Below, piece by piece: positions 4,827 through 40,138 of a stretch of 64,000 nt of DNA (position 1 is the first letter of the stretch; every line of letters starts with the position of its first letter). This DNA comes from Lingula anatina (lineage: Eukaryota > Animalia > Brachiopoda), in the NCBI GenBank assembly GCA_051362555.1, contig CM120641.1, forward strand, positions 22,258,001 through 22,322,000, read 5' to 3'. The position numbers and the translations under genes are program-made. The notes beneath the pieces were generated by a model. It worked only from the letters and a program-made list of their open reading frames with translations. It did no database searches and had not been told where the DNA came from.

Positions 4827-5754
4827 TTAATCAAGTGCATTCTCTTTGTGGGGAAACATTTCTATTTTCTAATGCGTTATCTATCAACGCAACTTTTTTT
4901 CAATTAAAATCTGACGTATATTTACTGTAACAGATAAACACTGCAGGATCACATTTCCTCTGTTAAGTTTGATCCCCCTTCCCCCCCCCCCCCCAAAAAA
5001 AAATAATAATAAAATAAAATAATAATATGGGGGGGGGGGACAAATCAGATTTAGTAAATCTACAGGTGCTCAGGAAGTCAAATGAGTCGAAAGTTCAGGG
5101 ACAGGGCTTTGAAACAGCCAAAAAAATACGCTTGGTATGATACACATTTTTGTGTTTTTAAACAGGGCTTGGGTGTATAAAAAGACGGAAGATAAGAGTA
5201 AAGAAAGTGCTTTCCATTAAATTATATTGATCTTTGTCATGTTGCGTGAAAAACCGGAAAATGTGACGTTTGAGCCATTTAATATGAGCAGTCGCGAAGT
5301 CGATCTTTGGTGATCAAAGCTTTTAGAAACCTACCCATACGCTCGTGGAGATCCGTACAGTAGGCCTATATACATTGTTACGTCAACCAACTATCGAATA
5401 CCCTGTTTATTCTATAAATCAAAAGATGCGTCATTTAGCATCTTATAATATCTAATGGAGAGAAAGCAACAGAAGAGTAAGGACACATGGTTAATTTCGC
5501 ATTTTTTGGATTAATGAAGTGGCAAAAATGAAACAAAAAAGAAAGGGCTCATCAACGTGCATCCTCAGCGCAGTTTGTTCCGTTCAATCTACATTGAACT
5601 CCAGTAACTTGGTCTCAATTGACCAGGTTTTGCTAATAGGTTAAAAGTCTTAACTTTTGTTTTCGCACGATCAATATGGCGCCCCATATGTGTCCAAACA
5701 TTTTTGCACTTATCAGATAGGCCTATATACGGAATCTTATTCTATCCTGTAGAC

Positions 5755-5836
5755 ATGGAGTTCTCTGATTCGTCTACATATTTCCTACGTTTCGCTTTGT
5801 TCCAGCTCTACGTCTTCTTTCATGCAGTGGATGAAG
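5755..5836 (+). CDS. Signal-peptide exon 1 ([27 protein letters not shown])
   Basis: ATG, hydrophobic core, phase-1 donor G|gtaag; preceded by an acceptor-like ctgtag. Joins 6611 in frame. Confidence 0.75.
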
Positions 5837-8800
5837 GTAAGACCATGTAATGGTTTATGTCATTTCATACACGTATTCATTAAACATCTACATGTATAGC
5901 CGCGTACCTGCACAGTGAGTTAAAGGATTCTTAACATTATGTAATTGAAGTCTATATTACCTAGAACCATTTCTCTATTGGATATATTCTATAGTGAAAA
6001 TTATATCTGACATTGCAGCATGATAATGTTGCAAATATTCGTACTGTGTACTTGGTTCGTATTAGCCACTGTCATTTTGTAAATATTCAGATATAAACTC
6101 TTTCTCACTTGTACTACTTTTAGAATCGAAGCGGACTTGTTATTAATCATTTACAGTTTTCTATACATGTACATGCCACTCGTGTCCCCGGTTAGTGCGT
6201 TTATTTGGAGTAATCTGTCCCAGAATTAGGGGTACATGTTTCCGTTTTGCATATCGTATATTGAGATACTTAAATTAAGATTCTTTAATCTGTGAACACC
6301 TTCCTCTCATCTTAGATCTTTTTCATATCGTGTGTTCACTTATCTGTATCGAAACACATTATAAACTGGTCGTAACTAGCTCGGGGTTCCGTTTAGGTGA
6401 TTGTTACTTAACAGCCGGGGTAGTGCGTTTTCAATCTTCTCAATGCGTTTCGATACAGATAATAATGTGAAAATTAAGGGCCTTTTCTTTGATAGTTTCT
6501 TTGTAGTTTGCTATGTTGATTCCCTTCTGATTTCTGTAGACTTGTTTTGAAGATTTCTTAATTGGTATAAATGAACATTTGACCAGAAAGATGCTTGTAT
6601 GTATTCACAGTGAGGGGAGAGGTGCCGATCCCGATTGCAGTTTGGCCTTTGGAGCAAGGATTTTGCGGAGCGGATATTAGCGGCAATGGCCACCACCTTC
6701 AGCTAAACTCAGTGGAATTTAAGAACTCGGTTTTACATTCAGTATTTTCGGACAACTCTGTCGCGACAGTGACAATACCCGGGCCATTCGATGGCTTTAC
6801 GATTATTATGAGCATTGAACCTTTAGCTTTGCCTTCTGAACATCTTGGTATTTTGTGTGCGGATATGAGTGCATTTGTGGTTTGTGTCTATCAAAAGAAC
6901 GGGGAGATTAGAGGCAAAGTTATTGGCACCAACGATTTTGAATCGACGAACCAAATCTTGACTGCTGGCACTGAGGTGAAACTAGTCCTTTCATTTGAAA
7001 AAGAATCCAAAAGGCGAATTGACGTCTTTTTGGGAGATAGTTTAATTGAAAGACTAACGTATGGTAGTGGTAGATTGGACTGGGAAAGTATCCAAAGTGT
7101 TAACCTCAGTTTTGGCAAGAGAGGCTCTTTACTTGCAATGAGCAGTTACGTGGGTTCCGTTCACTTTTATGCAAAGGAACTAAGCGGGAATGACATTTCT
7201 AGCGCCTTATCTGCCTACTGGAATAACCAAGGCGCCCTTATCCTGGGGGATTGGACCGCCTTCCTTAACGGTAAGTTTCTACAGGGTGAATAAAAATATT
7301 TAAAATCTGTTGTAAATGCAAATAGGCACCCCTTACTATGACATAACAGACAAAACCCTGGTGTGTATATATACAGACTTGACATTTAATATGGAATATT
7401 TCAGTTTCGAAGGTATACCTAGGTAAAAATACGTTCTTTTTTAAAAAAACTCCGATTTCATATAAGATTTGTGAATGTAAAAGTATGCAGTCATGTGTGT
7501 CACTACCAATTAACTGACTTTCATGCATGTTGCGCTGCTACACTATGTAATTTGCAGTGATTTAATTGGGTAGTGTTCCTTTGGGCTGATCAAAGCTTGG
7601 CTTAGGCAAAGCTTGGTTCTGTCAAAAAAGTATCCATATTTCGGCAACTACTGAATAGAAAAATTTGAAATTTTGCATGCAAGCGGTCAGTTTTGCAGTG
7701 CGTAAAATGAGTCAAGAAGTGCATTACAAATTTGTTAATCTAAGGCAGAATGGCGCGAAAAAGACAGACATCACCAGACAGATCATAGCGCCTACGGAAC
7801 GGTCCCCACAGTTTTATAGAGTAATGCCCAGACTGATGTACCTACACAGAGGTCACCCCCAATGTATCAAAATTTTACCTACAGGGTACAGGACCCACTG
7901 TCTTTCGGGATACGCTGCTGCAACTAAACAAAAAACACTTAGTCCGTTCAGAACGAGGGGTAAATTGCCACTAAAATGCGTTTTTCAAAACCCTTAGCGA
8001 ACACCAAACTGGTTTTAGCAGGTAAGAACACCTAATGACCTCCGAGGTACCCACTGTATACAGCAAAACATCGTCGTCTGTTTCTCTAATGAATTGGGGG
8101 CCATGAACGATTCTGGGTAGAACACTGAAACTGCGTGGCTTTCTTTATTGAGGTCAGATTTCACCTGTACCGCCCAATTAATCAAAACAGAGTTTACAGA
8201 TATCCAGAAGAGGCCTACGACGAAGCATATGCCGGGTCTAAAGTGACAAGGGTGATTGACAGCGTCAGTAATTGGAGTAGATTCCACATTGGTGCCAAAA
8301 CACCAATGGTAGTCATCGACGAAAACCTGAACCAGATCAAATAAAGGGATAATCTCGGAACCACTTGACTATCATTTGATAGGGGGCACCTTAGGAACAA
8401 TTCTAGGTTGCACGATGAGGTTGCAGGTTCACACAGAGCACTTTTAATAGCAGATAACTTACAGAACCAAGGGAATGAGCAGCTACCCTGGTCATCAAAA
8501 TCGCCTCATTTGAACCACATAGACAATATTTCGGTAGACCATTACTCACCAATCAACTGCCTACATGTCCTACAACAAAACTGGACCAGATTGGACAATT
8601 TCAGACCGATGCCTAGAATGCTATTCCAGATTGAACTCTAAAAACCTACCCTCAAGAAATGCCTTGCCGCTTGAGAGCGCTGGCAACAGCCACGAAGAGG
8701 CCAGGCGTAACAACGACCATTACTGTGACTAGCAACTGACATGATGGTATTTTGTGGAGCGTATTAGCCTTTTACAGACGATAATTTGGAAACTATGGAG

Positions 8801-10365
8801 ATCCAAAATATCTCTTTTAATGGGAGTCGTATGACATAGAATAGACAATGTGTTTTTGTTTGTGTCTCTGGCGAATTCCATTAATGAACTGATGTCACAA
8901 TGACATCAAATAGATAATTTGAAGTTATTAAAACACGATTTTAATCCTTATTTTCATTTATCAGTCAGCAATATAGGAAAAAACTGATAAAAAATTATTT
9001 CGAAAAAAATATTCCATATTAAATGTCAAGTCTGTATATAAACACTGATTTATTCTTTGCGTAGATGCTCTCGGGTTGCAGAAATTAACCTAGGTGGAAA
9101 TATTCTTTACGAACATTAAAAACGACAGCTTTGATTGGTGCTTGTAAGAGACTATAAAATGCTTTAACTTCAGTATATTAATTAATCATTAGTTTTTATT
9201 ATTATTATTTTATTAAAATTGTGACTCTAACGCCGATACATTTTTTTTTATTTTGCAATTGTTGCACCATCTTTACCATCTAGACCTACTTACATGTACC
9301 GGGTACCAGTGTATGACATGTTAATGCATGTCATACACTTAATTAAATCCCCTGCTTCTGGTAGTTTTGAAATAAAAGAGCTCAAATGTTGCTGTGCTAA
9401 ACCTTCGTCTCTGTGTTCATAAGCTTAAAGCTCACCAGCGATATGTTCAGCAATTTCAAAGAGGTAGTGGGATTCTAGGAACCTCTTATTGTCTCGAACC
9501 TTCTCAATTTCGTTTTTTTTTTTTTTTTTAGATCATGCATAGGTAGGAAAACTATTTGTGTAGTTATCAAAATTAAAGTTCCTTCTCAGGATGCGACCTG
9601 TCATTGCGTGTCTGGTGGACTGTTTGTCCCTTCCTTTTAGAAGTTAATTTGTTAAATTTGAACAAAATCCACTTTAAGCACCAACGAAGCTACAAGTTCA
9701 GTTTAAATCAAATGCTGTATTTATCTGAAATGAGCTATTGTTTGCATCGTAAGAAATACAAAAAGTGTTCTCTCGACAGTTTTTGTGATTTCAAATATTT
9801 TAAAGACTTATTGATAAAGTTTTGGTGGTGATGAGATGCAAACACATTTTGAAAGACTGGGGATATTTTGTAATCATAAAAAGCAGAAAATAGTACATAA
9901 AATATACCAAAATTGAGACCTTAAAACTATCGTCTCTACTTTATTCTTCGCTGATTCCTTTATAATCGGATCAAAATGCTACCCCTTTTAACCTTTAATC
10001 TATGTAAAAATTTACATATACATATTTTGCCCTCGTTTCCTAAGACTCTCAGACCAACTGCAAGGCTGATCTAGAAGGTGCTGCTTACCATGGTGACATG
10101 GCAGTGACATTGACCGGAACACCGTGCCAGTCATGGGACAGCAACACGCCCCACAGCCACACGTATCACGCCTCTAGTATGTTTCCTGACAATACCATTG
10201 GAGAGGCGGGGAACTACTGCCGCAACCCTCTCCAGTATGGCCAGCATGGACAGTATGGTCCCTGGTGTTATACAACGAACGTAAACTCTCGGTGGGAATG
10301 GTGTGCTATCCCCGTGTGCCAATATCAGACCACCACTGGTGAGTAGAGCTGTATACATCTATATA

Positions 10366-10410
<45 letters not shown>

Positions 10411-13400
10411 CCCCGGGGTAACTTGGCCCCCCCCCCATCAAGTCTCTTTAATGAAGTTACTTTAAGATTCTAAATTATTTCATTTGGACTCACTACCGAC
10501 GCTTTCTTAGCACTGTTGGATACGGTCACTTTACAAAATGATGTGATCGATTCTTTTACCCCATAGTTACTTTGTCATAAATTGATGGGGGGCCAACTTA
10601 CCCCGGGGTCCAACTAGCCCCGGTCTCCCCTATATACCACTGTATCCGCCAGCGTCGTATTCGTCGTCGGTATCGTTGCCGTCCGACATAATTTTTTGTT
10701 CACCCTGTTGCGTCCAAATCGTTTTTGGTTGACCCTACATTTGATGAGTGACTGTGTTTGGTACAAAGACAGGCCCCTTAAGTAAATCAGCGTTTTAGCA
10801 TTGTTGTTACAAAAATGGTTGTTTAACATAGATTGCCTGATTATGTTAAAGTGGAGCAAAATGGGAATGTTTTTTTTTTCTGTAACGTGTCAGTATATTT
10901 GCCAGCTTTGTCTAGTTTAATATTTAAATATATTCTACTACAATCGAAGTTTAATTAGTTTCCTAAGCTTCAGAAGTGGATCTACGAGAATCCGTGAGAG
11001 TGCTAGTGCAAGTCTTGCAAGCGTGTCACGTGACGTTGTGCTTGACGCGTGTGGCGTGGCGCAACCTAGCGTCACTGTACTACATGTAGTACATTATCAA
11101 TTATACTCTATATAATAAGGTGTCCCGTCGATATCGTTTCAAACCATTTCCATTTTCGCAAGTGTGATTTTTGCTTACAGATTATGTTAAAAGACGTATA
11201 AACTAATGAATTCTGAAGGCCGTTAACCACACTAAATGTGCCAAATTCTCGGAAATCGTCAGTTAAAAGCATAACTCTTTGTCCTTTCGGAATAAAAAAT
11301 TTTCCTTGCAGCCAATAGGGAGGGCTATATTGCTGGTAATAAGGCTAAATTGACCTTGGCGTTCATGACGAGACTGCCTTGGTTGGTAAAGCCCCCTTTA
11401 CACTGGACGGCGTCCTTTCTGCATCCAGCAGTACGGCCCCATTTAAGAGTTAAAAAATTATAATACTTTACGTGCCGACAACTGGCCGATCATTGAGCAT
11501 TCATTCTGTTACAAAACCAATGCTCCTGCCTCCTTATTAAGACCACAGCGATGCCAAATTTCATGGTCGCAGAAAGGACGCAGAAAGGACGCCGTCCAGT
11601 GTAAAGCAGTACCTACTCGCTCTCTTTTCTTTCCATTGATATAGCAACGGTCAAGATCACAGGAGAGTAGGTGTCAATTTGACTATTCCTATTGGCTGGC
11701 CAATTCACCGCATTGATAGGGGAAAAAGTTCCAGCCTAAATGTTCAAATCGTGGCATATTGACAAGAAATATGAAGTAAACGAGCCCAAAAGTAATGACT
11801 TTGGGACATTTTGGAGTTCATAACACTCCCAATATTTCACATTAGCAAAAATGAAATAGATTGCTCATTTTTAAACTTATTTCCCGGTCAGACCTTATGC
11901 ACTATTATTCATGTATGTACGTTGTGTGATCATTTGCTATCAATTTTCTGTGTATATTTATGTGAAAAAGGTGCTTACCCCTTCCTTTCCCTGATGGTAT
12001 GTTTAAAGAATAAGTTAATTAAGGCCTGTTACAGAAAAACGTGAGTGCACCTTTTATAAAATAAAAAATTAAAATAAATTTCGAGAAATGATAAAGAAAG
12101 TTTAATGTTTAGAAAACGTAAGCAAATCATAATTCATATCAACTAGGTTATCACGTAGATCAACCAGTTTGTGTCTTCAAAAAGTTTTGGTTCTGCCCAA
12201 AATGAAAGATCACAAGCTTAGAATTTAAGGTAAGAATTTGGTCAAACTAAGTGCTCGGGAAAAAAGATGTGTCATATAATCACAAGTTATAAACTGAAAA
12301 GGGTTACCTGATTTTATCCCCTTTGATCTCAATCAATCAGTATCGGCAAAACGCTGTACTCCACTTGGTGACCGTTTGCTTATATTAATAAGATCGTCGG
12401 TAAAGAGAGTATTCAGCTAGTGGCGAACTGCTTACATATGTAGGGTGCCAATTATTCATAAACGGGATTCAAATTGAAAAAATCAAAGTGTTGCTTAAGT
12501 TATGAACATCAGTGTATATGTATAGGCCTACATACCAAATGTTGTTATATAGACTTGGAAATGACGCTCGTGTCGTACGCACCTTTCTTCAATTGCAAGA
12601 ACAGAACTGTACAACCTCGACTGAAATTTGTCTTTAAATGTCAATGCAGTTTTCTTCTAATTGAATTGATTAATAACAGATGTAAATTCATTTATTGGTG
12701 TTACATGCATTCTTTACAGTAGCATCACTTCCGTGTTTCTGAAAATTGAATTTGGTTGCATTTCCTAATTCAGCAAATAACTTTAAAATATATTAACTTT
12801 CTTATTAAAGTATTTAAAAGGATAACAACTGTTCATTTTGGAAAAAAAAAAGAATTTTCCTGAGGTAAATAACAATTTGTCCATACTTACCAATGGTTAA
12901 TGAATCCATTTCTACATTCAAAGTTAGTCACTGTTATTTTTTCAATAAAAAGTGTTTTTTTTTCTTAAGAGATAATTACAAAGTATAGCCATCTGTGGTC
13001 ACATGGTTCGATGGCAAGCACAGATTTACGAATAATTGCTATAACTGCCGTTTTTGTGGTAAAATAGAATATATTACATTTCTTTGAATTGTGTACAATG
13101 TATTTATTGTTAAATATAGATTTCATACGAAGAGTTAATTGTTATCCCTTTAACGAAACGAAGTTTCCTCCTTTACGTGTAGATGAGCATCATTAGGGCT
13201 TTTTCCGGTGATTAATTGTTTCTTCGTGAATAATTTAGAAGGTAAGTGATATGACTGAAAGGTTTCTACAGTGAAGTTGCAAGAACAGAACTGTACAACC
13301 TCGACTTCTAAGTGTCAACGCAGACTTCACCTTATTCAATCGATTAATGAAAGGTTTCAGCTACTTTATTGATTTTATATGTATTCAATACAATAGCATC

Positions 13401-16368
13401 ACCATTATATTTATGAATGTTGAATTTGGTTGCATTTCCCAGTTCAACAAATACATTTAGAAGATATTGTGAAATCTTGCGTATATATGTTGCACGGCAC
13501 GTGGTTTCCTTAATTACGTGGAGGTGAGCATCTTAGGACTATGTCCGATGATTGATTGTTTCTTCGTGAATAATTCAGAAGTAAAGTGAAGTGGTTGGAG
13601 AGTTTCTTTCAAACAAATACGGTTATATCCTAGAACTAGTAGCTAGGACAGGATGAAAATGCGTGGAAACTTGTCGTTTTGCATGTAATCTCCACTACGG
13701 TTTATTGTGGTGATTGTCGCTAAAATGTGGTATTATGGGGTGGGAGAAACAACTACATGTAAAGCGTATATTTCCTGATGGATAAACTACCTATGTTGAG
13801 TTTGGAAGGAACCACATAAGGGCGACCATTGACAAACGGCGTATTTGGAGAGTACCAACAAAACAGATATGCTGCTAAGATTACAGACTGTGTTGACCTG
13901 CCTATTGCATGGTGTTCTCGGAGGTAAATTATAAAATTAACATAAAACTGGTTCAGTGATTTTATTACTTGTTAGTCAATGACTTCAGTTTTCTAGATCC
14001 TAGATTCAAACAGGATATAGATAAAAATAATTGCAACTTTTAAATTACATGCACAAAGTCTGTTTAGAATTTTTCATGCAGCATTACTTTAAAGGCTTGA
14101 TATTAATTACGAAATATGATTTTGATTCAGTTGAAGAAATCCTAACCACCAACGGCATACCTTGCGTTTTCCCGTATATCTATCTGGGTATTAGCTACAG
14201 CACTTGTATCTCTTTGGACTACCACGTGCCCTGGTGTGCAACCACCGCTGATTATGATTCAGATAAGAAATGGGGAATTTGCGTACTAGGTAAAAACCCA
14301 GTTTTTATACTATAATTGGACAGTTGTAATGTCCTTTTTATGCCTGCTTTTTTACTGCAATTCACCATATCTATTCGCTATTGCGTGACCTCATTTCTAG
14401 GCCTATGATTGGGCAGTAACAAAGACTTATTCAAATAAATTTTTTGTATGAAAGTTGTCAACTGTTACATGTATATATCCTAATTAGAATTTATTTTGAC
14501 TCTTGACTGATATAAAGTTTTTAATTTTTAAACAAATATTCCAGTTGTAAAAAAATCACCAATCACATGTACGATGAATAAAATGAAAATGAGTCACCAA
14601 AATCGAAAGTTGTCGTTCCTTCATACCTTGGTGGACAATCGGTATAATTAAACACATAGACTGTTTGATTGAGATTGATATACGCTATGCTTACATTTTA
14701 AGGGTACATGAGTACATGTAAGTTATAAATATACTACTCAGAAGAAGTAAGGGAACGCCAGCCATTTATGATGCAAAAGTTTGAACCATGCCTACTGTTA
14801 TTAAATTTTGGGAATTCTAAGACAAGGTAATCATCCTGTATAAGATGACATTTTTAATTTAATGTTGCAATAAAAAAATTTGCACTCGTTAAAAGTAATA
14901 ATCATGATTTTTGAGGGGGGATGAATAAAAAGCATTCTTGCAATTATCCATGTGAATTGTCATCGTGAGAATCACACTACAGAAGCGTTCACTGACACGA
15001 ACTCTAGCCGTGCTCCAACGCCGTGGTTTGTCATAGAGGAAAAGGGGAGAAACATAACATGCAGATACATAAAATGCAGATTTTGGTAAACAAGACACTG
15101 CCAGAAGATTAGATGCATGTCTTGCAGCAATAAACAGGCTGAACCATTGGAAAACAGGGGGTTAGCTAACAGACTAAGGACATTTCGACCTTGTACCACA
15201 ACCCCAGCTCATTTTCCATATTTATCTGTCATGCGGAACCTTACTGTCACTGCCAGAATACTACAAAGATCCTCCAGTGACCAAACTATCAAAAGCCGTT
15301 TAAGGGAGTGCAACCTTTGTTTAAGACCCCAGGCAGTGTGACCAGTCCTACTGGCAAAGGAAACTAGTATGGCACGGACGAGTTGCATTTAATACTGGTT
15401 TCAGATTTTACAACCCAGAACAGCAGAACGGGCGAGTTCAGATAGACGCAACCTTAAGCGAGCGCAACAGGTTTGTTGGTGGCAGTAAAATGCTTTGGGA
15501 TTGGTTTTCATTTTCATTTACAGACATACCCATTTACATTATTTATGGCAATCTTACTGGAATCTACTACAGGAATGAAACACCTGATATAGCTGGAAAT
15601 GCCATTACTCCGTAAGATATGTCATGCAACCATTCTACAATTTGACAACGCTCGATTTTACCGCGGAAGAATTCAAAAGGTTTTTTATGCAGCATATTAT
15701 TAATATTTGGATTTTTTTTCGAGATAAATATGGGATATGCAACACGTGTTTTTATAGGGTTGACACATACTATAAAACATCACGTTCTGTTTTCGAAATG
15801 CTGGAAAATGAAATGCTGGAAACTGGGAAGCTCAAAATATCCTGGTGCTTAAAACGTCTCAACACGACTATTGCGCATGCAAGCCATCGGGCACGGGTTC
15901 GCATCATATGGGTTTTTAAAACTATGGTTTTGGCGAGACGATGGAAAGTAATTTCACCATATCAAGCCTTGTGCAATTTACAGAAATTTCACGAGCACTG
16001 TAACTGTCATAAGGATCACTATAAATTGAAGGCGCATACTATCATTAGTATAGATGAAGCGGATAGATTGTAAGGATGGTGTGGATTAATTTGAAATGTT
16101 GAACTTTGGTTACTTTTTTCCATTTTTTTCTAGTAGATTATCTCACCAACATAAATGGATAAGTAATTGATTGCAAAGTGAACAGAATAAAGTATTAACT
16201 TAAAAGGAGTGGAGAAATTATGATAACAATTATGGGTTTTTTTTTTTAACTACCGGATGACCCTACTAGATGAGTGCAGGATGTCGAGGATCCGTTATAC
16301 CCACGGTTATTTATTAAATGGTCATTGATAAAATGCAGTGTAATAAATTGACATTACAAGCATCAATT

Positions 16369-16419
<51 letters not shown>

Positions 16420-19400
16420 ATTTCTATTATACGCAATTAGCATTATCATGTTCAGGTTCTCAGATATACCAAAACTTACCCGGTATGGTGACGATTTGAT
16501 GATAATTAACCTTCTAAAATTGCCAAAGGCGAAGTTATTTTCTAAAAGAAATGGACAGAAAATAAGGAGATCAAACATGAAGCAGTTTCCTTATTATGCC
16601 AAATATTGTTTTATCCAACTTTGTAAGGCATTATTTAAGATGCCCGGTACATGATGGGCTGTGACCTGGTATTATTTCGGAGATGTCTAACTCTGTTCAA
16701 ACCTTACTTCTTGAGTAATTAAACTTTGGAGAATACAAATGTTTGGTGCAATCACTAGGACATGTTTATTGTTATTAATCCATATTTTGTTCCCTTTAAT
16801 CCTTCTCTTTTGCGTGTCGATAATTCAAACCCTTTTAAATGTGCCCAACTAAAAGTTCAAACTTCCTGTGCCATTCAATTTGAATTGATTATTAAATGTA
16901 CATTGACTAGCGTATGTTGTGATGTTTTCGTACACTTAATATAAAATCATTTAGAAGGTCATTGTAATTGTGGATCTTTATGTATAACTTTCACTTTATC
17001 CACAGTATGACCAGCTTGATAGCATCCGACGATTGATTGCCCCTTTTAGTTACCATGTTAATTGTATAACATATTTTAGGGGAAACAAATGTTATAAGAT
17101 CAGTGACTAGACAGGGACATTATAGATTGGAAGAGCATAAATGGCGTTTGGGCACATTCCAGGAGATTTGGTCCCACATGAGACTCATAACATATGAACG
17201 TGAAAAGGACGGTCTTGGCTTGATAGATGCTGACACGTTCAGACCGTTTTAAGCAGGGGGAAGAAACTCGATTGTGGCCCCTGCCTTGTAATCCTTCCGC
17301 GACCCCACCCGCCGCCAACGTGTTGGTCGTCTTGTTGAAAACGTACAGAGCAGAATACATATTTGGGGTGAAACCATGTATCTGTTTCCTCAAGTTGAAA
17401 CCAAAACGTCTTAGACGCTCTTTCCCAAGGACTTGAACTCTCCCTCACATAGTACGCAGCTTTGGAGGATCTGTCTGAGTGGTGTTAAGGCCTTTCCGGA
17501 AAGCAGATATGCAGCTAATAATACAGATTGTGCCGTGTTTTGTATACCTCTTGTATGGTATTCTCGGAGGTAGGAACTAAGATGAGATTACGATAACTAT
17601 ATATGAATACCAGCTGTTAAAGTTAAAAGTTTAAGTTACATATTGTTTAAAATCGTGTTGATTATGTTTTACAACTCTTACATTGTAAATCTTCTTGTCC
17701 GCTCCAGTTGCACATCCTTTTTGCCAAAATTTCTTATATTGATGTCAACCATGTAAAAGTTGCAAATAGTTGAATAAATTGAAATATGTTCACGGTCAGA
17801 AGTAGAAATTTAAATTTAATCGGTAATTTTGAATTAATTTATAACCTATTGCACTTCCAATGTTACGACCCTAGAACAAACGTATACAGAGAGCTTTAAG
17901 AAAATTTGATAAGAAATGAAATTGTCTTCAAATTATTCATGCGTGCGGCTCCTTTCGATTAAGTTGAAGCGGTGCAAACAACCAACGGCGGAACGTGCGT
18001 TTTCCCATTCATCTACCAGAGCAATAGCTACAGCACCTGTATCACCCTTGACTTCGGCTATCCTTGGTGTGCCACTACATCCAGTTATGATCGAGATTAT
18101 CAATGGGGAACATGTATATTAGGTAATAACAGTAGGTGATAACTTTAGGTGTACCTATTCCGCCATTAGCACTAAAGTAAAGATGTATGGGACAATACAA
18201 GTATGACCTTAGTTGAAATGGACAGGGTGTCTGAGTATAAGTGTGGCACGTATTCACAATTATAAATATAAACCAAACAAGAAAAGCAATAAAACTTTGG
18301 ATTTCCTAAATGCTGAAAAGATGGCAATTGAGATGAGTCTTCATTTTGTACCTCTCGTTAAAAAATCAATCTTTACAAGACACGCTAATGGCATATTGGA
18401 CTCCAAATGACAAAAGCTCGGACTGCGTCCACATTCTCACCTTCGCAGTCAACTTTCGACAACTTGATGATGGTTGCCCTTTCTTCTTCAGTGTTCGAGT
18501 GTCCTTAGTTTTTTTTACCCAGCGGGTAAATTTTTGTTCCAGATAGAGCATTACACAAAATGTTTTTCCTTTGGTTAGCCATACCATTTCCATGGATAAT
18601 TTTGAAATGCTGTTCTAATTCTCTATCAACCCTGAAAAAAATTTAATTAAAATTAAAATAATTAAAATTGGCGGAGATATAAACCTCGAAATGGACCATA
18701 TTGTAACACTCTGTTATTTAAGTAGCCTTGGCGCTAATTATTTGAATCAGAATTTTGAAAAAAGGGGTTTGTTTTAATGAATAGAATTGAATGCTGGGGA
18801 TTTTGTCGGTATGTAGATAGGAGAGAATCATGTGAATCAACATATTCATTCTTAATATGCATGTATATACATATAGATAATTTAGAATATTTCAGTTGTT
18901 AATGTGTTTACAATGTTTTCAGCAGTCTTTTGAAATCCATTCATTATGTTGCAATGATACTAATTTATTTATTTTATTTTGCGTTCTGGATCAAATACAC
19001 TATGGGATAACGATGCGGATAGGCGTTGAATATGGCGAATAGTGTAAAGTAATGATTTGGATAAGGCCATATTCACTGTGTAATGATGCCAAGAATAAGC
19101 TTCTTCCAGTTGGGTGATGTAAGTGATCAAAGAGATTTCTTAATTTCATATTTTCCGGATAATGCAATTAAATTTTAACCTTTACGACGGGGGCATGTCT
19201 TCATCAACAACATACTCTATACATCAGTCAAAATCATTTCAGTTTCCATTTCTACTTCACCTAAATCGATACTGCTCAAGAATTGCAGACGTTTTGACCA
19301 CTGAGTGACCGTTCCATTGCAGACAGGAAGTATAGATATGATGGCTATAATGTATAATGTAGAGTTTCATGTTACGCGCAAAACCCTTCAAATTTGCAGT

Positions 19401-22400
19401 TTAATGACGTTTTAATATGCGAAGTGAATATGCTTTCCTCTTCAAAGCCAGGGCTGCCTTAAATCAATTTCTCCTTCCAGAAGCAAATGTAGCTGCTCAT
19501 ATTTTAGCAAATTAAATGTTTTGAGTTTACACCTTAGATGGCTTTAAGGAAGATTTAGTGTTGTTATAAATAACGGAATAAGAATTTCATTGCTTTATTA
19601 ACCAATGAAAAGTTTGTCTACTTTTTATATCTCTGCATGTGCAATTTAACTATCACTTTGTCTGTCTACCTATTGTCGGGGTGAATTGAGTTCCAATATT
19701 AAATCTTGCATTATATCACAAAATCCTGCAGATATTGATCGTTAATAACACATTTGACCCCGCCACTTTAATGAAACATCAATTGTTTGGGTATGCTGTG
19801 TTGGTTTATCAATTTCATATCAACTTCACTTTTTTTTTCAAATTCCCCAATGATGCGAGTGTGCGCTACACGTTGAAAAAAGAATTATCGATTTTAAAAT
19901 GACGGGTGTATGTTATTTTGTTTAGCAATGCTACAATATACTTTAGGCAAGGGTCAAAAATGGCAAACATATAATGGGTTTTATTGATTGATTGATTCCT
20001 AGCTTACGCTGAGAACTCTTGGAATGTAAGCAATGTTATCAAATTATGATACACATGTAACATTGAAGGTGATCTTTCGGGTTTCAGTGTGTTAAGTTTT
20101 GGTTACTTGAAAACAAAATCATAATAAGAAAAAACCGGTTAGGGAATATATAGGTCTTTAAATGTTACTTAGAACAAAACGTCTTATCAGTAAGTAAATG
20201 TAGCAACAGTTTAATTTCATTGCATTCCTCCCATTAACTCATGGTATGCCTAAGATGTAACCATCTTTAAATTGATAGAGCCGTCTATATACGTTGACAC
20301 ATTCGATTCATAGTTGTAATCAGGTGCGCTTACTATTGTCTTTGCTCGGTAATTGCTCTTCTGTTTTGCATATTAAATGTAACAAATGCGATAGAATGAC
20401 GAGCACTCAAATTCAACGGTTAATACTGTCGTTGCTATTGATGCCAATCTATCTAGGATTCTCTTTCACTTTTCGTTACTTTATTTGCAGTAGCCCAACT
20501 AGAATTGATAAATTGATTACCTTGTTGCACGCTGTGATAGCGCACTTTGTGTGTGAGAAGATGACAAGCCAAACAATAGATATTGTTATTGATAGGAATG
20601 TAAGCGAGGCGCAACGGCCAGCGCAGTAGCTGACAGTACGAGCTTCAATACTAGCGTATTTGCTAGACCCGGACTGGAAATGTATATCTTGATTTTTCAC
20701 AGGGTTTTTGCTTCCTTTATTTTCATGTTTCTTGTCGCAGTACCCACTACAACCACAACCACAACCACGACATCTACGACTCCATTTCCAGGTGAGTTTT
20801 TATAAGATTTTGCTTTTTCTCTTAATTCTCATTTTCAAAAACATCAGATCGCAAAGGGGAAGATGTTTTTAAATCTATGAGACCGCATTTTAACTAACGT
20901 ATCGTTTTTATTTTATTTTATTTTATTTTATGTTGCAAAAGATTGTTTACTATACTGTGCTAACATTCATATAAATCCATTGTTACCAAAAAAGCAGTGA
21001 TGATACATATCATGTTTAGCTTGTCACAAATAAACAAAACTCTCACGGACGCTATATTTTAAACATTAAACAACCTATAGTCCAATGAAATACCATTATT
21101 CTGACTAAGTGTACTTGTGGTAACGTTATTTAGTTTTTTTAATCAGTATTTCAGTAATCAAGGCCACATTTCAGGTTTCTTTTTTACACATTCATCTTGA
21201 CAAGAAAATGGCAAGGACTAACGTCAAATAATGTTACATAATAAAATATTTTTTGAGGTACATGTACAAAGCCAAATAATAAACCGACATATCAGATGAC
21301 AGATGATGACAATTACATCTCTAGATACATAGGGAAAATCAAGATTGCAACCTGCTCCGCAAGAATTATAACATATGCATATAGTGTAAAGCTAGTCGGT
21401 ATTATTGCAAAGATAATATCAGGTTCTTAAAACCAATACCTGTAACCTAACCTGCAGGGAGGACACTGTGTACAATTTATTCGCCAGTTATATGAAGATT
21501 GGAAAATTAAATCGATTGTCCACTTGGATTAGTTAACGTTAGACGTATTTATTACGTAATGTACATGGTGTGTGGAAAAGCGAAAATTGAACGGACTGTC
21601 CATGTACTTGTCGCTTCCTCTAACCATTGACGTCATCCATTTACCGCGAGCCACACAGGAAACAATCCGCGGTATAGTCCTCGTGACAGAAGAAAATATT
21701 GGCCACTTAATTCACATCTTAATTTTGATGTTAATCAATTTATCTAAAATAAGGGATTAGATATTGTAGTTATCGTTTTTGGCCTTTGCAGGCCAACCCA
21801 ACAACCAGACTCGGCACATAAGGATCCTGAATTAACCGGTATATCGGACCACATTACCCGTTTTCAAGGTGTGTGTCAGATCGCATTTCGGAGTATCAGT
21901 CAGAACACCGACAGGATAAGCCCGCGGTCGTTTGTTCTGGGGTATGATACTCCGAATCCTTATGTGCCGAGTCTGGTAGTTGGGTAGGCCTGCTTTGGTT
22001 ATTATTTTTTTTCTGAATTAGGTGTCTTTTAATGAAGCGTACAGTTACCATAATGATATTTTAGTGAATTTGCAAGTTCTCTATTTCTCATAGTAATGGA
22101 ACACACTACATTTTGGGCACAATTTTTTTACCGATTAATGTGGGAACAAATTAAAGTGGGAACGATTACAAACACCTTTGGTCAAACACCTTCTGAGAAC
22201 GTTTGGTCTATGGGCTTTAATGGACTCTTCATTTTTTGTTGTTTTTTTTTATTTAAGCACAATAGCTTTGGTCGCGAAATATATGTAAAATCACTTTATT
22301 ATCATGGATGGAACCATGTCCAGAACCATGCTCCTTAAATAATATTTTAACTCAATATACGCTTAAATTCCTTGTTAACATTTATTTTAAATCCAATTAT

Positions 22401-22644: not shown

Positions 22645-25600
22645 TTGTAACTTTACCGATGATCGATTCCTTTTACCAAATATTTCAGGATGTGATGAGT
22701 ACATAGACGCCGCAAGCGGCACTCTCAGCACCCCGGGTACCACGTACCCCGCATCTATCACGTGCACGTATGTTATCAACTCAACCCTACCTGACGGGCT
22801 CATCGAGCTGAAGTTTAACGGTGCACTGGATATGGAGCATGGTGGTGCTTGTCGAGATTATCTCCAGGTACGCCGAGAAACTATTTGTTTTCTTGTGTTT
22901 CTTTTAGTAAGTTTTTTTTCAAAATTGTGCATTTTTATGATTTTTTTGCTAGATATATGTGCGGATGTCACGGTCATATTGCACTGAACCGAAAAGAGAG
23001 CAATTTTCAAACTAAAACATGATGACCTTTATTTACTTTTCTGTCATTTGCCTATCTCATAACTGTGCGCTCCTTCAACTCGGTAGAAAAATACGTTTTA
23101 ATTAGTATTGGCACCCCCTTGCAGATTTGAACTTATTTACAGGAGTAGTTGTAGCAACAACAACTATAAATCACCACTTTTTCTAAAAAAGGCATTGTTT
23201 TTTAGATATACGTGATCCCGGAAAGTGGTTATTCAGATGGAGTTGAAATCTTCAAGGGCGAATATTGTACTGGAATACCGGGACCTTTTTACGCTCGAGC
23301 CTTTCGCTTGGAATTCCTCAGCGACACGGTTGACGATGGTAATATGGGGTTTACAGCCACATACAGTAATGGTTAGTACCTTATATCCATTTAAAATTTT
23401 ATTTATTGCTGCCTGCTACCAATGGGGACAAATTACGCCTTTGCTGAATTCAACGTGTCCTTTTCATTGATAATTCTAGTTATCCTGGTATTATAAATAT
23501 CATATATCAGCGGTTGTTTCTTTAGACGTATATTGACAGATACAAATAAATAATCTATTATATTTGTAAAAAAACAGAACTCACAGAGAAATCTTGAATC
23601 ATTTCTGTACGTAAGAACCGGGTAGAGGTTAGAAACCACGTCTGTGGTGCACCAGATACTAATGGTGGTAGGGGCCTACATGTAGTTTCAAAAACTTTCA
23701 AAATTTGCAGAATGGTATATTTAAAGGCCCCTATTGATATCCTGAAGATGTATGATTAAAAAAAAGTTCCACTTGCAATGTTTCCATGCTTTTACTTAAA
23801 TCTTTGCTAGCTTTTTGTTTTTAAATTAAAACAGTATCTGTCGAATACAACGAATGGATGACGTGGAGCCCCTGTGACGTCTCATGTGGACACGGGACTA
23901 GCGTTCGAGAGAGGTCATGCAACGTCACAAGCGTAACGCCGCCAGTGGTACACCAAGCCTGTGACACTGAGACAGGACCGTGTACGGCCTTCATGGATAT
24001 ATGTCCCATAACAGGGAGCAATGGTAAAGCGTTGTTGAAAACCTTAAAATGGAATTTCTAGTCGTTCAGATACAGTTTTAATACATGTGTGTGAAATGTA
24101 TGTCGTCAACCGCACAAGGGTTAAATTGTACAAAAATTAAATTTTGTGGCGATATTTGGATTTGTAACAAAGTAATTCAGTTCGTCAACACTCAAAAGAT
24201 AATTATTTTCATGTATTTGGCATCTCTCATTAGGAAGAACTGCAAGCATGCATGTTTTGCATGTGGTATTAAGAAATACTGATTCGCTGACTGTTTTATT
24301 TATTTAATTTATATCGATAGGAATTTGAACAAGATAATTTTTATTTGAATTCCGTGCGCTGTCAACATTGTTGCATGTTTGAAAATCACTGGAGCAGGCA
24401 ACCATTTTTGTATGTTATTTCATTAACTTATTAACCGGAAATTATCCCCCAGACGTTGTGTTAAATATTATTCTTTTCTGCAGGTTGCGACGCAGTCTAT
24501 ACATCCAAGAATGGCTATGTAACTTCTCCTAACTTCCCTGCTGACTACAACAATAATATGGATTGTAATTACACCATAATTCCTCCGTCCAACGGCAGCG
24601 TCTTAAAACTGAATTTTACTGCATTTGTGGTCCAGTACGAAGCAACTTGTTATTACGATTATCTCACGGTAAGTTAAATTTAAAAAGAGGGAAGTAAAGT
24701 CGTTAGCTCTCTGAATGTTTCACTTTCCATACATGTACCCGTATTTCTATTTGAATGTTCAAACATTTAATCCTGATTTCAAACTGTGAGATTAGCCTAC
24801 ATGTACGTACATGTGAAATTGAATGCAGTTGTCTGATATTTATGGTATGCTCTTTTGATCCATTGCATGTTTTTTTCTATTTGTATTCTATATTTATTGA
24901 CTATCCACATACATGAACATGCGGTAGCAAAACAGTAAAGGCTCTGGCGCTGGAAATAACCACTTCGTATGTACAAGGGTGTAGTTGGACGGTGTTTTGA
25001 ATGTACCGTAATTTAAAATAACATTAACGCAACTTTGAACGAACATATTGTATTCATTCATTTGTTTTAGGTACAAGATTTGGGAGATTCTACCAGCCCG
25101 CCAGAGAAATTTTGTGGCAGTTCGAATCCTCATGATTTTTACGGGACGGCGTTTGAGCTATTATTCCATTCCAGCTATGCTACCACGTACTCAGGGTTTA
25201 ACATCACATACTATAGCTGTAGGTTGCTTGTCCATTTAAATTATTGTTTGTTTGGCTACTGTTATTTCCTAAGATCATGCAAAATGTTTTAATAAATTAG
25301 CAGGCCTAGAGTGTTTTGAAAATAGGAATGTTTTATCTGGTAGTAAACGTTACACAGGAAATATTCATTTTTCTATTAGGTTTTCATCATTCAAGGTTAT
25401 GAAATTTTCATAGCTACATGTATATAAGAGGGGCAGTAAGAGGGATTTTAGTCGGGTGAAACGAAAAACATAAGGTTTAAAGCACACTTTTTTAACGTCG
25501 TGTATGTCTCTATGGACCTGCAAAGCCCCAAATGCTATACTTTCCATTTTAATGTATTACTGATAAATTATTTTCTTTTAGTGACAAATATCACGTACAG

Positions 25601-28600
25601 TAATTGGGGACCCTGGAGTTCGTGCAGTGTCACGTGTGGGACAGGCACGCGCTCTCGTCTGCGTACATGTTACGTCACCGATTCCGACAGCACGGTGGTG
25701 TACCAATATTGTGAGGACATGGAGGAGACAGAAGCCTGTGATGGATTCATGGCGACGTGCCCCGTCTTGGGTGATAGTGGTACAGCTTTGTCATACTATA
25801 ACATTATCCACATTTTATTGGCTTGATGTTAACTCGTTTCAGATATGGCTATTTAATTTACAAAGCAAACAGACAATGGGCTAAACTTACACCTTGTTCC
25901 ATTATGCAAATATGCCTTATATCAATATTGCTTTCAATGATTGTCAATTGAATTCTTTATGGGTTAGATTGGATTCAAAGTTTGGTTTTGGTTTCAATGT
26001 GCGTTTTATTCTTCATTTGGGTGAAGTGATTTAAGTGACATTATAATTATTTAGGTAAATTAATGTTTGGTCCAATGGCTTTGACAAACAAACTTTTATT
26101 TGTCTGTGCTATTGTTTATCATCGATTTCACATTAACGTTTATGGCAATGGTCCCTTTATTGACTCGCTGCCATGACACCAGCTTCTTGTTTTTGGTGTC
26201 ATTGTCCTGAGGAATGGATAGTAGCAATGTCTCATTAATTATATATAGCCTGATAACGTATCATTTACAAAGTGCAAGACCTTGCGTTGTAGAGATTATG
26301 GCTCAAAGTTCACTCTAAACGCAAAATAAACTTACCAATCCGTTGCATCCAAAAATGTTGAACATCAGATATTTATGCATTTTATGTTCATTTTATATTG
26401 CGAAACACAAAACAAAGTTACTACCTCTGAGTAGATCTTATACTCAGTTCCAATGAAAAGGTTGAGAACTGTTCGCATTTTGTTCTTCATAGGTTGTGGT
26501 GGTCTGTACCAGTCGTCTCCTGGTCTCCTGATGTCTCCTAATTACCCAAATAACTACCCTAACGGACAAGACTGTAACTACACAATCGTGCCCCAGCAGG
26601 ATACCCTGTTACAGAGGCTCACCTTCGTGGCTATGTCGATTCAGGTGCACGCGACTTGTTATTATGATTGGGTTCAGGTGAGTTACATTACGTGCCTAGA
26701 TTTTTTCTTTTTATATTTTAAAAAAGGTTCTCTTCAAATTCTACAAAGTTAAATACTGCCTTCTGGACGAATACTTAATGGTTAACTGTATCCTGGTTTC
26801 ACTGTCAAAACCAAATTCAAATAGTTTACATTTCTTCTTTATTTTTCAACTTTCAGCCAATTAAAATAGGCCTAATTCAAAATTAGTTTTAAATTATTTT
26901 TTCATAAAGTACCACAATTGTTCGTCGGACATTTTAATTAATGTTGGTACTGTCACCAGTTCGTTGTTAGGGATATTTACAGCCAAACATACGATGGCAT
27001 ATTACCAGACATTAAGTAAAAACTTAGTGGCAAAACCACTCTTTTTGCATTTAACGTTTTGTTCATATGAAGATTGAACACTTGGATTTAGTGCACATCA
27101 CTTTCAGGTCAAAATAATTGGCGAGCCCCCGTTCAAAGAGAAGTACTGTGGTGCCACATTACCACCCGATATCTATGGCGCTGGCTTTGAGGTTTTGTTT
27201 CATTCTAGCTCCTACACACAGTCCACTGGCTTTCATATCATCTACTATCAAGGTATGTGATACAGTTGTTAACGTCATAATGTTGTGTATTTTTGGTTTA
27301 TTTTAATTGATGTCATAGAGTTACTGTTGTTAGTGATATTGATCACTTTGGAAAGGGGAGTTACGCGAAACAGCAACGCCAGGCTGAATGTTCACAGGTA
27401 GTTGGGTGTTGGTTGGGAGATTGTTGGCCTCACTCGGAAAGTAACACCCAAAGGCCTGTGTACACTCACGATGCTCTTGAGACATGAGCGAAACGTTGCC
27501 TTTTTGCATTATTCTCCATTCCAAAGTAAGTGGTCAACATCACTAAAAACAGTAGCTTATTCTAACATGGTATACAACATGCTCGTGGTCGCACCCCCTT
27601 ATGTTATATCCAAACTAGGAAAGCACTTCGAGAGCGCAGACCTCCGCTAAGGCAGCAATGTCTCCACCCAATGCGGTTCACCCCTAAAATTTTGATTCTA
27701 TAATGATTTAGTTTTTTTTTTAATTTTTGATTATTGATTAATTATTGATCTGGATCACCAACAACAACTAATCATCTGTTCCTTGGCCCACTTCTGTCAG
27801 TTCCTGAAAATTTAATCAAAATCGGTCTATAACTTAGTTTCTTTTATTTTTGATTATTGATCCAGATCACCACCAAAAACCTACACTTCTAAGTTAACCC
27901 ATTTCTGACCTACCCTGAAAATTCCATCAAAATTCATCCATTACTTTTTGATTTATGTTGATGACAAACAGACAGACAGACAAACAAACAAACTTGGGTG
28001 AAAACATAACCTCCTTGGTAAATATTAAATAGGTAAATATTATGCATTTGACTTCTTTCTTGAAACAGATATTGTCATTTTAGTGCCCATTAGAATCCAT
28101 TTGATAAGATTAAGTTTGAATAAAGAATCTCTGTGGGATATGGGCGTCCTCATCCATACGGTACTCACTCATCCTTTGGTGCCTTTTTGGTCGTTTTCCT
28201 TCATCAAATGTAACTCCTCCATCATGCAAAAACAAAGCTACAGACGTGTATTTTACCATTGGTAGTTGGTATCGGCCTCGAGAAGTTGTCTTGAAATAAG
28301 TTGCAAGTCAATTAATAAAGATTGTTCCTTCATCGTTTCAGTGGAAAATATCACTTACAATGAGTGGAGCTCGTGGAGCCAGTGCAGTGTCACATGCGGA
28401 CCAGGCACGCGACAGCGGACGCGAACTTGTAATGTGACAGACACCGCGTCCACTGCGGAGTTCGTGTCATGTGGAGCAAATAGCACGGACACCGATATAT
28501 GTCAGGGATTTATGGAAACTTGTCCCGTGCCTTTTCCGAATGGTAAATCTGCTCAAATACATGTAGCTTTTGTTTTTTAACCAGTACCTTAACAGTATTA

Positions 28601-31307: not shown

Positions 31308-31346
<39 letters not shown>

Positions 31347-33197: not shown

Positions 33198-33274
<77 letters not shown>

Positions 33275-33697
33275 ACATGTGTATGTGCACAATACATGTA
33301 TAGAAGTGTTTTGCTTTTTGGTGGTCGTTGTGCTTATTGTTTCTTAGGAACATTTCAATGATTAATTTCAAATGTTGTTAGATATTTGTTTGCAGTCATT
33401 TCAGGTTTAAATTTTAAGTTATTTGAGGGCTTGATGTTGTCAAACATAGCTTTACATACCGTTTCATGCCGTTTAAACAAAATCCGAACGAGGACGGGTT
33501 TCACGGTTCTTGTATATATATGCTAAGCACGTGTTGTCTATTTAGATATTTCTTCATGGGAGGCTTGGGGGAGTTGGGAAGGGTGCTCACTGAACGGCAC
33601 TCGTTCTCGCACCAGGCAATGTCAGCCATCACCGGGACTGTGTAACGGAACATCGGTAGACGTTAGTGATGGATGCCGTAAGTTGTAAAAGCTCTGA

Positions 33698-33741
<44 letters not shown>

Positions 33742-39020: not shown

Positions 39021-39055
<35 letters not shown>

Positions 39056-40138
39056 ACCAACAATACATGAAAGCCTAATTAGTTTGTCTGTACTATCTGT
39101 TATATTCATTTACGTGTTGGAACAGAAAAAGACTTCTGAAAGACTGGAAGAAAGGGAAAGGCTTACATTAAGCCCCCCTCACAAAAATGTTTCCAAATTA
39201 CTTTAATGAAAAGGCACATTGTCAAACTAGGTGCGTGCACGCTTACTTTTGAAAAGCTGAACTAAAATACTTCCATTTTACAATTGAAATAAAATGATTC
39301 AACAATCATCTTAAATAGAATCAATTCTGTCCGCACTTGTGTGTGTGCGTGCGTGTGTGCATGTATGTTTGTGTGTGCGTGCTGGCATCCGTGTGTGTTT
39401 TAATGGTATAACGCAAGGAATAATTCTGTTGTGTTAATATCTTTCAGTACCTGTGCTAAATTGTCAGTCTACGTTAGATGACACATATTGCCCGAGTTCT
39501 AGCGACCTCAACTGCACGTAAGTAACAATACTTTTAAGTATTTAGAAATACTGGTAACTGTAAGATTGACCCTCTCAGATTTTGATGAAAATTGGTGAAT
39601 TTACATGATCTTATTGTTTCAAACCAACACGATTGATATTTTAATTTTTTTTATAACGTCATGGTAACAGCACTGTTACGCTCCATAATAAATTCTATAA
39701 AGTGAAAATAGTTAAACCATTGTTAAGGCTAGCTCATGTTTAACGAACGTAAAGGTAGATAAGGAATGTGAGTATAAATATAAGTTGACTTGAGTTTGTC
39801 ATTATACAGTACAGCAGTAAATGAAGACACATATATATTAATAATGGTGAGCGTGATTAACTAACAGTGTACCCGCTGAGCAACACGTCAGTCATATCAA
39901 TCTCTATTTCCACTTAATCTATAGTGAATAATCTTATTTCAGATTTATTTGTCCTGCTGGTTGTGAGAATGAACCAACTTATATATACGGCACATCGGAG
40001 TATTCCTATGTAAGTAATAACCATTATATCAGGTAACGGAAATACAAAATTTAGTTACAACAGCATACGTTAAAATATTCTTGGGTGTGAAAAAGAAGAA
40101 TGTACATTATTATTGGGACAAAAAACACCAAGTTATTC

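What the first reader, a model, noticed from the sequence alone, without database searches (positions are those of the whole stretch)
5755..20791. Three signal-peptide-led 5' cassettes feeding one constant receptor body
Seen: besides SP1 (5755) ahead of LamG + kringle, two further ATG-initiated hydrophobic mini-exons sit in what look like introns: [18 protein letters not shown] (13869-13923) and [20 protein letters not shown] (17509-17569). They are paralogous (cagatATG...TTCTCGGAG|gta), end in phase 1 and lack a good upstream polypyrimidine tract. Each lies directly before its own 159-nt FN2 exon. Kringle, FN2-A and FN2-B all end in phase 1 and can each join the Thr-linker exon at 20741. Established: tandem variable first-exon cassettes spliced to a constant region define clustered protocadherins, UGT1A and chelicerate short Dscams. 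Inference: promoter choice swaps the distal tip (LamG-kringle, FN2-A or FN2-B) of a ~2,450-aa constant receptor. I do not know this arrangement for a CUB/TSP1 protein.
Basis: partly seen in the sequence, partly recalled or inferred. Interest (0 to 1): 0.9.

Follow-up and report, generated by a model that had tools for sequence, protein, structure and literature searches.

The report
One receptor gene, three front ends
A marine-invertebrate-type gene for a large predicted cell-surface receptor carries three separate signal-peptide-like start exons, so it likely makes versions with different outer tips on one shared body, a known gene design newly seen in this protein and not yet seen in RNA.

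Summary
Three ATG-led, hydrophobic, phase-1 mini-exons lie ahead of a 45-exon, about 2,357-aa type I membrane body: SP1 before a LamG-like and a kringle exon, SPA before FN2-A, SPB before FN2-B. Only 5 mini-exons on both strands of the window pass a leader filter, and three are these. SPA+FN2-A and SPB+FN2-B are an old tandem duplicate (FN2 dS 0.86, dN 0.28). Both leaders kept ATG, frame, hydrophobic core and donor, which neutral decay keeps in 10% or fewer of simulated copies. SPA and SPB have no usable acceptor beside the ATG; SP1 has one and is probably exon 2. Alternative N-termini are therefore well supported (about 0.85). Whether upstream starts skip the downstream FN2 exons (swap) or keep them (nested ladder) is open, because every route is in frame. 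Four RNA runs put no reads on any of the six exons laid, and no orthologue was found. The layout matches chelicerate sDscam-alpha two-exon cassettes: a new member of a known kind, with only three cassettes.

The parts
5753..5836 (+). SP1 leader exon (ATG at 5755; MEFS...AVDE). Has an acceptor 2 nt before the ATG, so probably exon 2 behind an unlocated non-coding exon; weaker leader than SPA or SPB
   Evidence: acceptor 6.5, donor 9.7; no 19-residue hydropathy peak >=1.5
6611..7270 (+). 660-nt phase 1-1 exon, LamG-like (weak assignment)
   Evidence: no Pfam hit; N-terminal 33 aa match a profile of 13 Lingula LamG repeats, 19.1 bits against a best 6.3 in 500 shuffles; single-sequence fold unusable, pLDDT 35
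10045..10338 (+). kringle exon, phase 1-1
   Evidence: Pfam PF00051, 74.2 bits
12661..13558 (+). region upstream of SPA holding three short words that recur, in the same order, only upstream of SPB (16880-17039); possible remnant of a duplicated promoter
   Evidence: words picked after seeing the alignment, and the region's overall score is not exceptional (52 of 798 and 3 of 794 real-sequence windows reach it)
13869..13923 (+). SPA leader exon, 18 codons, ends phase 1, no usable acceptor beside the ATG
   Evidence: (donor 8.7; acceptor -2.7, below all 37 training acceptors)
14131..14289 (+). FN2-A exon, phase 1-1
   Evidence: Pfam PF00040, 61.7 bits
17509..17569 (+). SPB leader exon, 20 codons, ends phase 1, paralogue of SPA
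   Evidence: donor 6.4; acceptor -3.7; 54 of 67 aligned nt identical, one 6-nt gap
17964..18122 (+). FN2-B exon, phase 1-1, 62% protein identity to FN2-A
   Evidence: Pfam PF00040, 62.8 bits
20741..20791 (+). first shared exon, Thr-rich linker, strong splice sites
   Evidence: acceptor 11.1, donor 11.3
22689..51356 (+). 43 further shared exons: 7 CUB and 5 TSP1 repeats, 2 LCCL, LamG-like segments, 4 sushi-like, Gly- and Thr-rich stretches
   Evidence: hand-built model open from end to end; Pfam run on a subset of exons, some hits below the curated cut-off
51638..51843 (+). last exon: single predicted transmembrane helix, short basic tail, stop
   Evidence: 19-residue hydropathy peak 2.84; no Pfam hit

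Best explanation
The gene has three leader-bearing front cassettes (SP1+LamG-like+kringle, SPA+FN2-A, SPB+FN2-B) in frame with one shared 45-exon membrane-protein body, and each cassette likely has its own transcription start and is likely spliced straight to the linker exon, which would swap the outer tip of a predicted cell-surface receptor. Shown: exon anatomy, reading frames, paralogy of the two FN2 cassettes, lack of an acceptor beside the SPA and SPB start codons. Inferred: (1) a leader+FN2 unit was duplicated in tandem long ago and both leaders were kept by selection; (2) transcripts start just upstream of SPA or SPB, or at a non-coding exon upstream of SP1; (3) the weakly bordered FN2 exons are recognised mainly through the short intron from their own leader (207 and 394 nt) and are skipped by transcripts from further upstream; (4) the tip, a kringle-superfamily module in all three forms, sets what matrix or cell-surface ligand is bound. 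Ligand and tissue are untested. Products would be 2,703, 2,429 and 2,431 aa.
For: Leader filter: 5 sites on both strands of 64 kb, three of them these, and SPA and SPB each lie just before an FN2 exon. The AG 2 nt before the SPA and SPB ATGs scores -2.7 and -3.7, below all 37 training acceptors (lowest -0.3). FN2-A vs FN2-B dS 0.86, dN 0.28; leader exons 76-78% identical while the 290 nt upstream do not align (298 of 300 shuffles score as high). Leader identity exceeds that at FN2 synonymous sites, p=0.004; a neutrally decaying copy keeps all leader features in 0.3-10% of runs, both copies in under 1%. Spliced in internally, the leaders would add hydrophobic peaks inside the ectodomain. FN2 exon borders are weak: FN2-B acceptor 4th lowest of 37, FN2 donors 4th and 6th lowest, linker acceptor 11.1. 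Introns between cassettes are 2.6-3.8 kb against a body median of 453 nt. Kringle and FN2 are two families of one superfamily (PMC8373733, passages).
Against: No transcript evidence: 4 of the 9 listed runs were laid (6-25% of each read) and none put reads on kringle, SPA, FN2-A, SPB, FN2-B or the linker; since the shared linker was empty too, this does not separate the models. Nested routes are all in frame, and FN2-A has an ordinary acceptor (6.0) 3.8 kb from the kringle donor, against 10.4 kb to the linker. The intron behind the leaders also still aligns (82 of 119 nt), so the leaders' excess identity over it is only p=0.06. Within the leaders dS (0.15-0.3) is below dN (0.34-0.45), not the usual sign of protein-level selection, though only about 14 synonymous sites are compared. 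No clear shared promoter motif, and no docking-type RNA pairing above controls. SP1 is a weak leader and has an acceptor. SignalP was not available.
Confidence: 0.5

Rival explanations
1. Nested ladder. The three starts are real, but upstream transcripts keep the downstream FN2 exons, giving LamG-kringle-FN2-FN2-body, FN2-FN2-body and FN2-body: progressive N-terminal truncation, not a swap. A mixture with the swap is possible.
For: All these routes are open (2,809 and 2,482 aa). Both FN2 exons must have working acceptors, and FN2-A's is ordinary (6.0). Splicing between cassettes occurs in sDscam (PMC4835542, passages).
Against: FN2-B acceptor and both FN2 donors are among the weakest of 37. 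Kringle and FN2 are related modules at the same position before the linker, which suggests substitution (inference).
Confidence: 0.27
2. One promoter (or a trans-spliced leader RNA) with alternative 3' splice sites: a shared non-coding exon is joined to SP1, SPA or SPB. The proteins are the same, but the choice is made by splicing, not by promoter.
For: All three ATGs have an AG 2 nt upstream. SP1's is a normal acceptor (6.5), SPB has a 5.4 site 114 nt upstream with no ATG in between, and a top-scoring donor (12.3) lies 628 nt upstream of SPA.
Against: The AGs beside SPA and SPB score below every training acceptor; SPA's nearest fair acceptor is 290 nt up with 8 ATGs in between. The trans-splicing lineages named in PMC12460157 (passages) do not include annelids, molluscs, nemerteans or brachiopods, the groups of the best named hits.
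Confidence: 0.12
3. SPA+FN2-A and SPB+FN2-B are small separate genes for secreted one-FN2 proteins, nested in the long kringle-to-linker intron and ended by read-through of the donor and intronic polyadenylation.
For: Read-through stops within 5-8 codons, and AATAAA follows at 14434 and 18288. Small secreted FN2 proteins exist (PDC-109 among the hits).
Against: Both FN2 exons keep a phase-1 donor, 7 of its first 8 intron bases shared, while the read-through tails differ. AATAAA occurs 1.1 times per kb in this window. No further exon was found between the cassettes.
Confidence: 0.06
4. One or both FN2 cassettes are dead relics or chance look-alikes, and only the LamG-kringle form is made.
For: No reads on the cassettes in four runs. 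Neighbouring intron DNA still aligns, so some similarity persists without selection.
Against: FN2 dN/dS 0.33 with all four cysteines kept. Neutral simulation leaves a leader intact in at most 10% of runs. The kringle and linker exons had no reads either.
Confidence: 0.05

Closest known systems
Chelicerate sDscam-alpha and sDscam-beta6 (PMC4835542; abstract and passages seen)
   Same: Tandem 5' cassettes before common exons of a single-pass surface protein. The alpha cassette has two exons and encodes a leader and one domain. Beta6 has only two cassettes.
   Different: No Ig or FNIII domains were found here. Three cassettes, of two unlike kinds. Promoters and junctions were tested there and are untested here. 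No evidence of homophilic self-recognition.
Vertebrate UGT1, GCNT2 and clustered protocadherins (PMC1885805; passages seen)
   Same: Variable leader-bearing front ends joined to constant exons; GCNT2 also has three.
   Different: In UGT1 and protocadherins each variable part is one large first exon, so (my inference) there is no internal acceptor to skip. Here each cassette has internal acceptors. The variable exons there are all paralogous.
Collagen XVIII (PMC5761888; passages seen)
   Same: Two promoters, different signal peptides, three N-terminal forms on one body.
   Different: Secreted collagen, unrelated sequence, no tandem duplicated cassette. Neurexin alpha/beta and neuregulin 1 are similar cases recalled from memory, not checked.
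Lingula LamG-repeat proteins XP_013404145.1 and XP_013421969.1
   Same: Share the start motif of the LamG-like exon (about 35 aa, 36-40% identity).
   Different: Tandem LamG repeats without kringle, FN2, CUB or TSP1 hits; not orthologues.

Membership tests
Variable 5' cassette / constant region loci (sDscam, UGT1, clustered Pcdh layout) | Tandem front cassettes, each starting with its own ATG and leader | tested here: met
   three leader-like exons in tandem; by hydropathy and residue rules, SignalP not run
Variable 5' cassette / constant region loci (sDscam, UGT1, clustered Pcdh layout) | Every cassette ends in the phase of the first constant exon and gives an open frame | tested here: met
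   2,703, 2,429 and 2,431 aa, no internal stop
Variable 5' cassette / constant region loci (sDscam, UGT1, clustered Pcdh layout) | Cassettes are paralogous duplicates | tested here: inconclusive
   met for A and B; not for the SP1 cassette at sequence level, although kringle and FN2 share a superfamily
Variable 5' cassette / constant region loci (sDscam, UGT1, clustered Pcdh layout) | Each cassette has its own promoter | tested here: inconclusive
   no acceptor beside SPA or SPB; three shared upstream words, weak overall; no start-site data
Variable 5' cassette / constant region loci (sDscam, UGT1, clustered Pcdh layout) | Each cassette is spliced to the constant region in mRNA | tested here: inconclusive
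   no reads on any of six exons in 4 of 9 runs
Variable 5' cassette / constant region loci (sDscam, UGT1, clustered Pcdh layout) | Cassette number varies among relatives | not testable with these tools
   no genome held; no orthologue
sDscam protein family | Ig and FNIII ectodomain homologous to Dscam | tested here: not met
   Pfam on the exons scanned gives kringle, fn2, CUB, TSP1, LCCL, LamG and sushi, and no Ig or FNIII
Fibronectin type II domain (PF00040) | Score above Pfam's curated cut-off, four cysteines | tested here: met
   61.7 and 62.8 bits against 22.2; four cysteines invariant
Laminin G-like (PF13385) for exon 6611-7270 | Profile or fold match over the domain | tested here: inconclusive
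   no Pfam hit; only the first 33 aa match a home-made profile; fold unusable

The most novel reading that the evidence does not exclude
A lophotrochozoan receptor has independently evolved an sDscam-like cassette locus in which promoter choice exchanges structurally related but sequence-unrelated binding tips (LamG+kringle against two FN2 variants). The downstream FN2 cassettes would be skipped through weak exon borders alone, giving cell-type-specific ligand choice on one giant CUB/TSP1 stalk.
Probability: 0.35. Interest if true: 0.6.

Novelty: new member of a known kind. Interest (0 to 1): 0.42.

Why it matters
It would add a spiralian CUB/TSP1/LCCL/sushi membrane protein to the genes that change their outer end by choosing among leader-bearing cassettes. 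With three cassettes of two kinds it is small enough to test directly how downstream cassettes are skipped or kept, which is hard in large protocadherin or sDscam arrays. It also bears on annotation: a gene predictor would likely chain LamG-kringle-FN2-FN2 and drop the two leaders (inference). The principle is known and the repertoire is tiny, so interest is moderate.

Tried and rejected
Own genome: none held. Run search on 13860-23400: no RNA holder listed; exons are only about 6% of that stretch's words (my estimate) and a holder needs 5%; 9 raw-read runs were offered. Orthologue searches failed: LamG-like exon, 385-2000 aa, 0 of 3453 candidates; FN2 pair, 92-2000 aa, 43 of 124 candidates, mostly MMP9, none above 57% identity; the predicted proteins are longer than 2000 aa, outside both ranges. 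LamG-like exon against 1.84 billion representatives: 3 hits, one a bacterial repeat protein I set aside as spurious, two from Lingula. 41 metagenome loci with FN2 were distant (best 54% over the domain; three short 27-48 nt matches ignored); only L008 also held CUB exons, on both sides of its FN2. No fourth or decayed cassette by tblastn or nhmmer. A candidate exon at 21792-21983 was rejected as an inverted-repeat element. Single-sequence AlphaFold of the LamG-like exon: pLDDT 35, not searched further. The bacterial promoter scan is irrelevant to an animal. Docking-type pairing between cassette donors and the linker acceptor: -22.5 to -23.1 kcal/mol, inside the range of 20 controls. The protein atlas did not complete. 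Earlier-findings look-ups by place and by sequence were empty. Paper searches listed nothing on this gene or on such cassettes in a CUB/TSP1 protein; only listings were seen except for five papers, and no supplements were read.
Full report
What the window is. AT-rich animal DNA (GC 33-43%) with one large plus-strand gene from about 5.75 to 51.84 kb and a giant-like bZIP gene at 57.9-58.9 kb. The best named relatives of the bZIP protein are from an annelid, nemerteans and molluscs at about 40-46% identity over most of its length, so the animal is probably a lophotrochozoan. No whole genome is held.

The observation. Kringle and both FN2 exons pass Pfam's cut-offs (74, 62, 63 bits). I chained 45 shared exons from the linker (20741) to the stop (51843) into an open frame of about 2,357 aa with one strong hydrophobic peak near the C-terminus. 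A few borders in the 3' half are my best choice without RNA. Pfam was run on a subset of body exons and gave CUB, TSP1, LCCL, LamG3 and sushi, some below cut-off. The LamG label for 6611-7270 is weak: no Pfam hit, and only its first 33 residues match a profile of 13 Lingula LamG repeats (19.1 bits; best of 500 shuffles 6.3).

Are the leaders more than chance? Splice-site matrices were trained on 37 exons of this gene. A filter for ATG, open frame of 46-91 nt, clean hydrophobic 8-mer and phase-1 donor passes 4 sites on the plus strand and 1 on the minus strand; three are SP1, SPA and SPB, and with a small-residue rule at -3/-1 only SPA and SPB remain. The thresholds came from SPA and SPB, so the informative number is the background of 2 other sites on both strands. 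Each of SPA and SPB lies 207 or 394 nt before an FN2 exon. SignalP was not available.

Are they functional? FN2-A and FN2-B differ by dS 0.86 and dN 0.28, so the duplication is old and both domains are under purifying selection. The leaders are 76-78% identical, with a single in-frame 6-nt gap, while the 290 nt upstream do not align (298 of 300 shuffles score as well). Against FN2 synonymous sites the excess is p=0.004. Against the best-aligning part of the following intron (82 of 119 nt) it is only p=0.06. Within the leaders dS is lower than dN on about 14 synonymous sites, which does not look like ordinary protein-level selection. The stronger argument is retention: in simulated neutral decay at 0.2-0.43 substitutions per site, a copy keeps ATG, frame, donor, hydrophobic core and cleavage residues in 0.3-10% of runs, and both copies do so in under 1%.

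First exons or internal exons? All three ATGs have an AG 2 nt upstream, which would make each an in-frame phase 1-1 exon. For SPA and SPB this AG scores -2.7 and -3.7, below all 37 real acceptors (lowest -0.3). Internal inclusion would also put two hydrophobic peaks inside the ectodomain. For SP1 it scores 6.5, a normal acceptor, so SP1 is probably exon 2; a TATA-like word lies 342 nt upstream, untested. SPB has a 5.4 acceptor-like site 114 nt upstream with no ATG in between, whereas SPA's nearest is 290 nt up with 8 ATGs in between. Three short words occur in the window only upstream of SPA and of SPB, in the same order, which hints that the duplicated unit included upstream DNA. They were picked after the fact, and the region's overall score is reached by 52 of 798 and 3 of 794 real-sequence windows.

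Swap or ladder? Unlike the single variable exons of UGT1 and protocadherins (PMC1885805, passages), these cassettes contain internal acceptors, so a transcript from upstream can take in FN2-A and FN2-B. All such routes are in frame, and sDscam shows splicing between cassettes (PMC4835542, passages). Favouring the swap, by inference: the FN2-B acceptor is 4th lowest and the FN2 donors 4th and 6th lowest of 37, the linker acceptor is strong, and kringle and FN2 are two families of one superfamily (PMC8373733, passages) that sit at the same place before the linker. No docking-type RNA pairing was found.

RNA. Nine raw-read runs with the same species label were offered. Four were laid on 9230-20895, reading 6-25% of each. 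Reads fell on intronic repeats, mostly as partial matches from other loci. None fell on the kringle, SPA, FN2-A, SPB, FN2-B or linker exons, and no splice joint appeared. Because the shared linker was empty as well, this says only that the region was not detectably expressed there. The rest of the body was not in the stretch.

Relatives. No orthologue turned up in the protein collection (both stop at 2000 aa, shorter than the predicted products), among cluster representatives or in metagenome contigs. No further cassette lies in the window.

Comparison and verdict. It works like a variable-cassette/constant-region locus, closest in layout to sDscam-alpha (two-exon cassette with leader and one domain) and, for unlike N-termini from separate promoters, collagen XVIII (PMC5761888, passages). 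It is not an sDscam, protocadherin or UGT by sequence. Eight paper searches listed nothing on this gene or on this layout in a CUB/TSP1 protein; the library lacks most subscription papers and no supplements were read. Unchecked notes of this scan describe three-front-end genes in three other genomes, which suggests the layout recurs but is not evidence. My odds: alternative leader-bearing N-termini about 0.85; separate starts with a swap 0.5; nested ladder 0.27; shared first exon 0.12; separate mini-genes 0.06; relics 0.05. New member of a known kind; interest 0.42.

Noticed in passing
window 26493-27252 vs 29083-29865; 28342-28542 vs 30522-30722: Recent internal duplication in the body: CUB3a and CUB4a differ at 1 of 183 nt, TSP3/TSP4 dS 0.12, CUB3b/CUB4b dS 0.23. 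Repeat number may vary, or the copies are being homogenised.
   Followed up: partly
window 35258-36289 (-): Broken Tc1/mariner-type transposase in the longest body intron (HTH_Tnp_Tc3_2 51 bits, weak DDE_3).
   Followed up: partly
window 57921-58946 (+): Single-ORF giant-like bZIP gene; used only to place the lineage.
   Followed up: partly
window 12593-13267 vs 13277-13607: Tandem duplication of about 340 nt upstream of SPA, with a repeat (12813-13153, also at 4497-4830) inserted in the first copy. A top-scoring donor at 13241 lies in the first copy and is altered in the second.
   Followed up: partly
window 21788-21993, 11396-11606, 7363-9045: Elements with terminal inverted repeats (43, 31 and 39 nt). 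The 11.4-11.6 kb and 12.8-13.1 kb repeats are abundant in all four RNA runs.
   Followed up: partly
window 5413-5490: TATA-like word 342 nt and CRE half-sites 326-491 nt upstream of the SP1 ATG, and a modest donor at 5489 (4.7): candidate non-coding first exon.
   Followed up: no
window 15325-15612 (+): 96-codon open stretch in a GC-richer patch between the two FN2 cassettes; no Pfam hit, no reads.
   Followed up: partly
window 48587-48799 (+): Exon with a long Gly-rich run in the membrane-proximal stalk, between sushi-like and Thr-rich exons.
   Followed up: no
window 51638-51843 (+): Transmembrane exon with a short basic tail. It resembles a C-terminal motif of lophotrochozoan mosaic membrane proteins (recalled, from no call); no Pfam hit.
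   Followed up: no
L008:321-11119: Metagenome contig from another source with an FN2 exon among several CUB exons; 27-53% identity, not an orthologue.
   Followed up: partly
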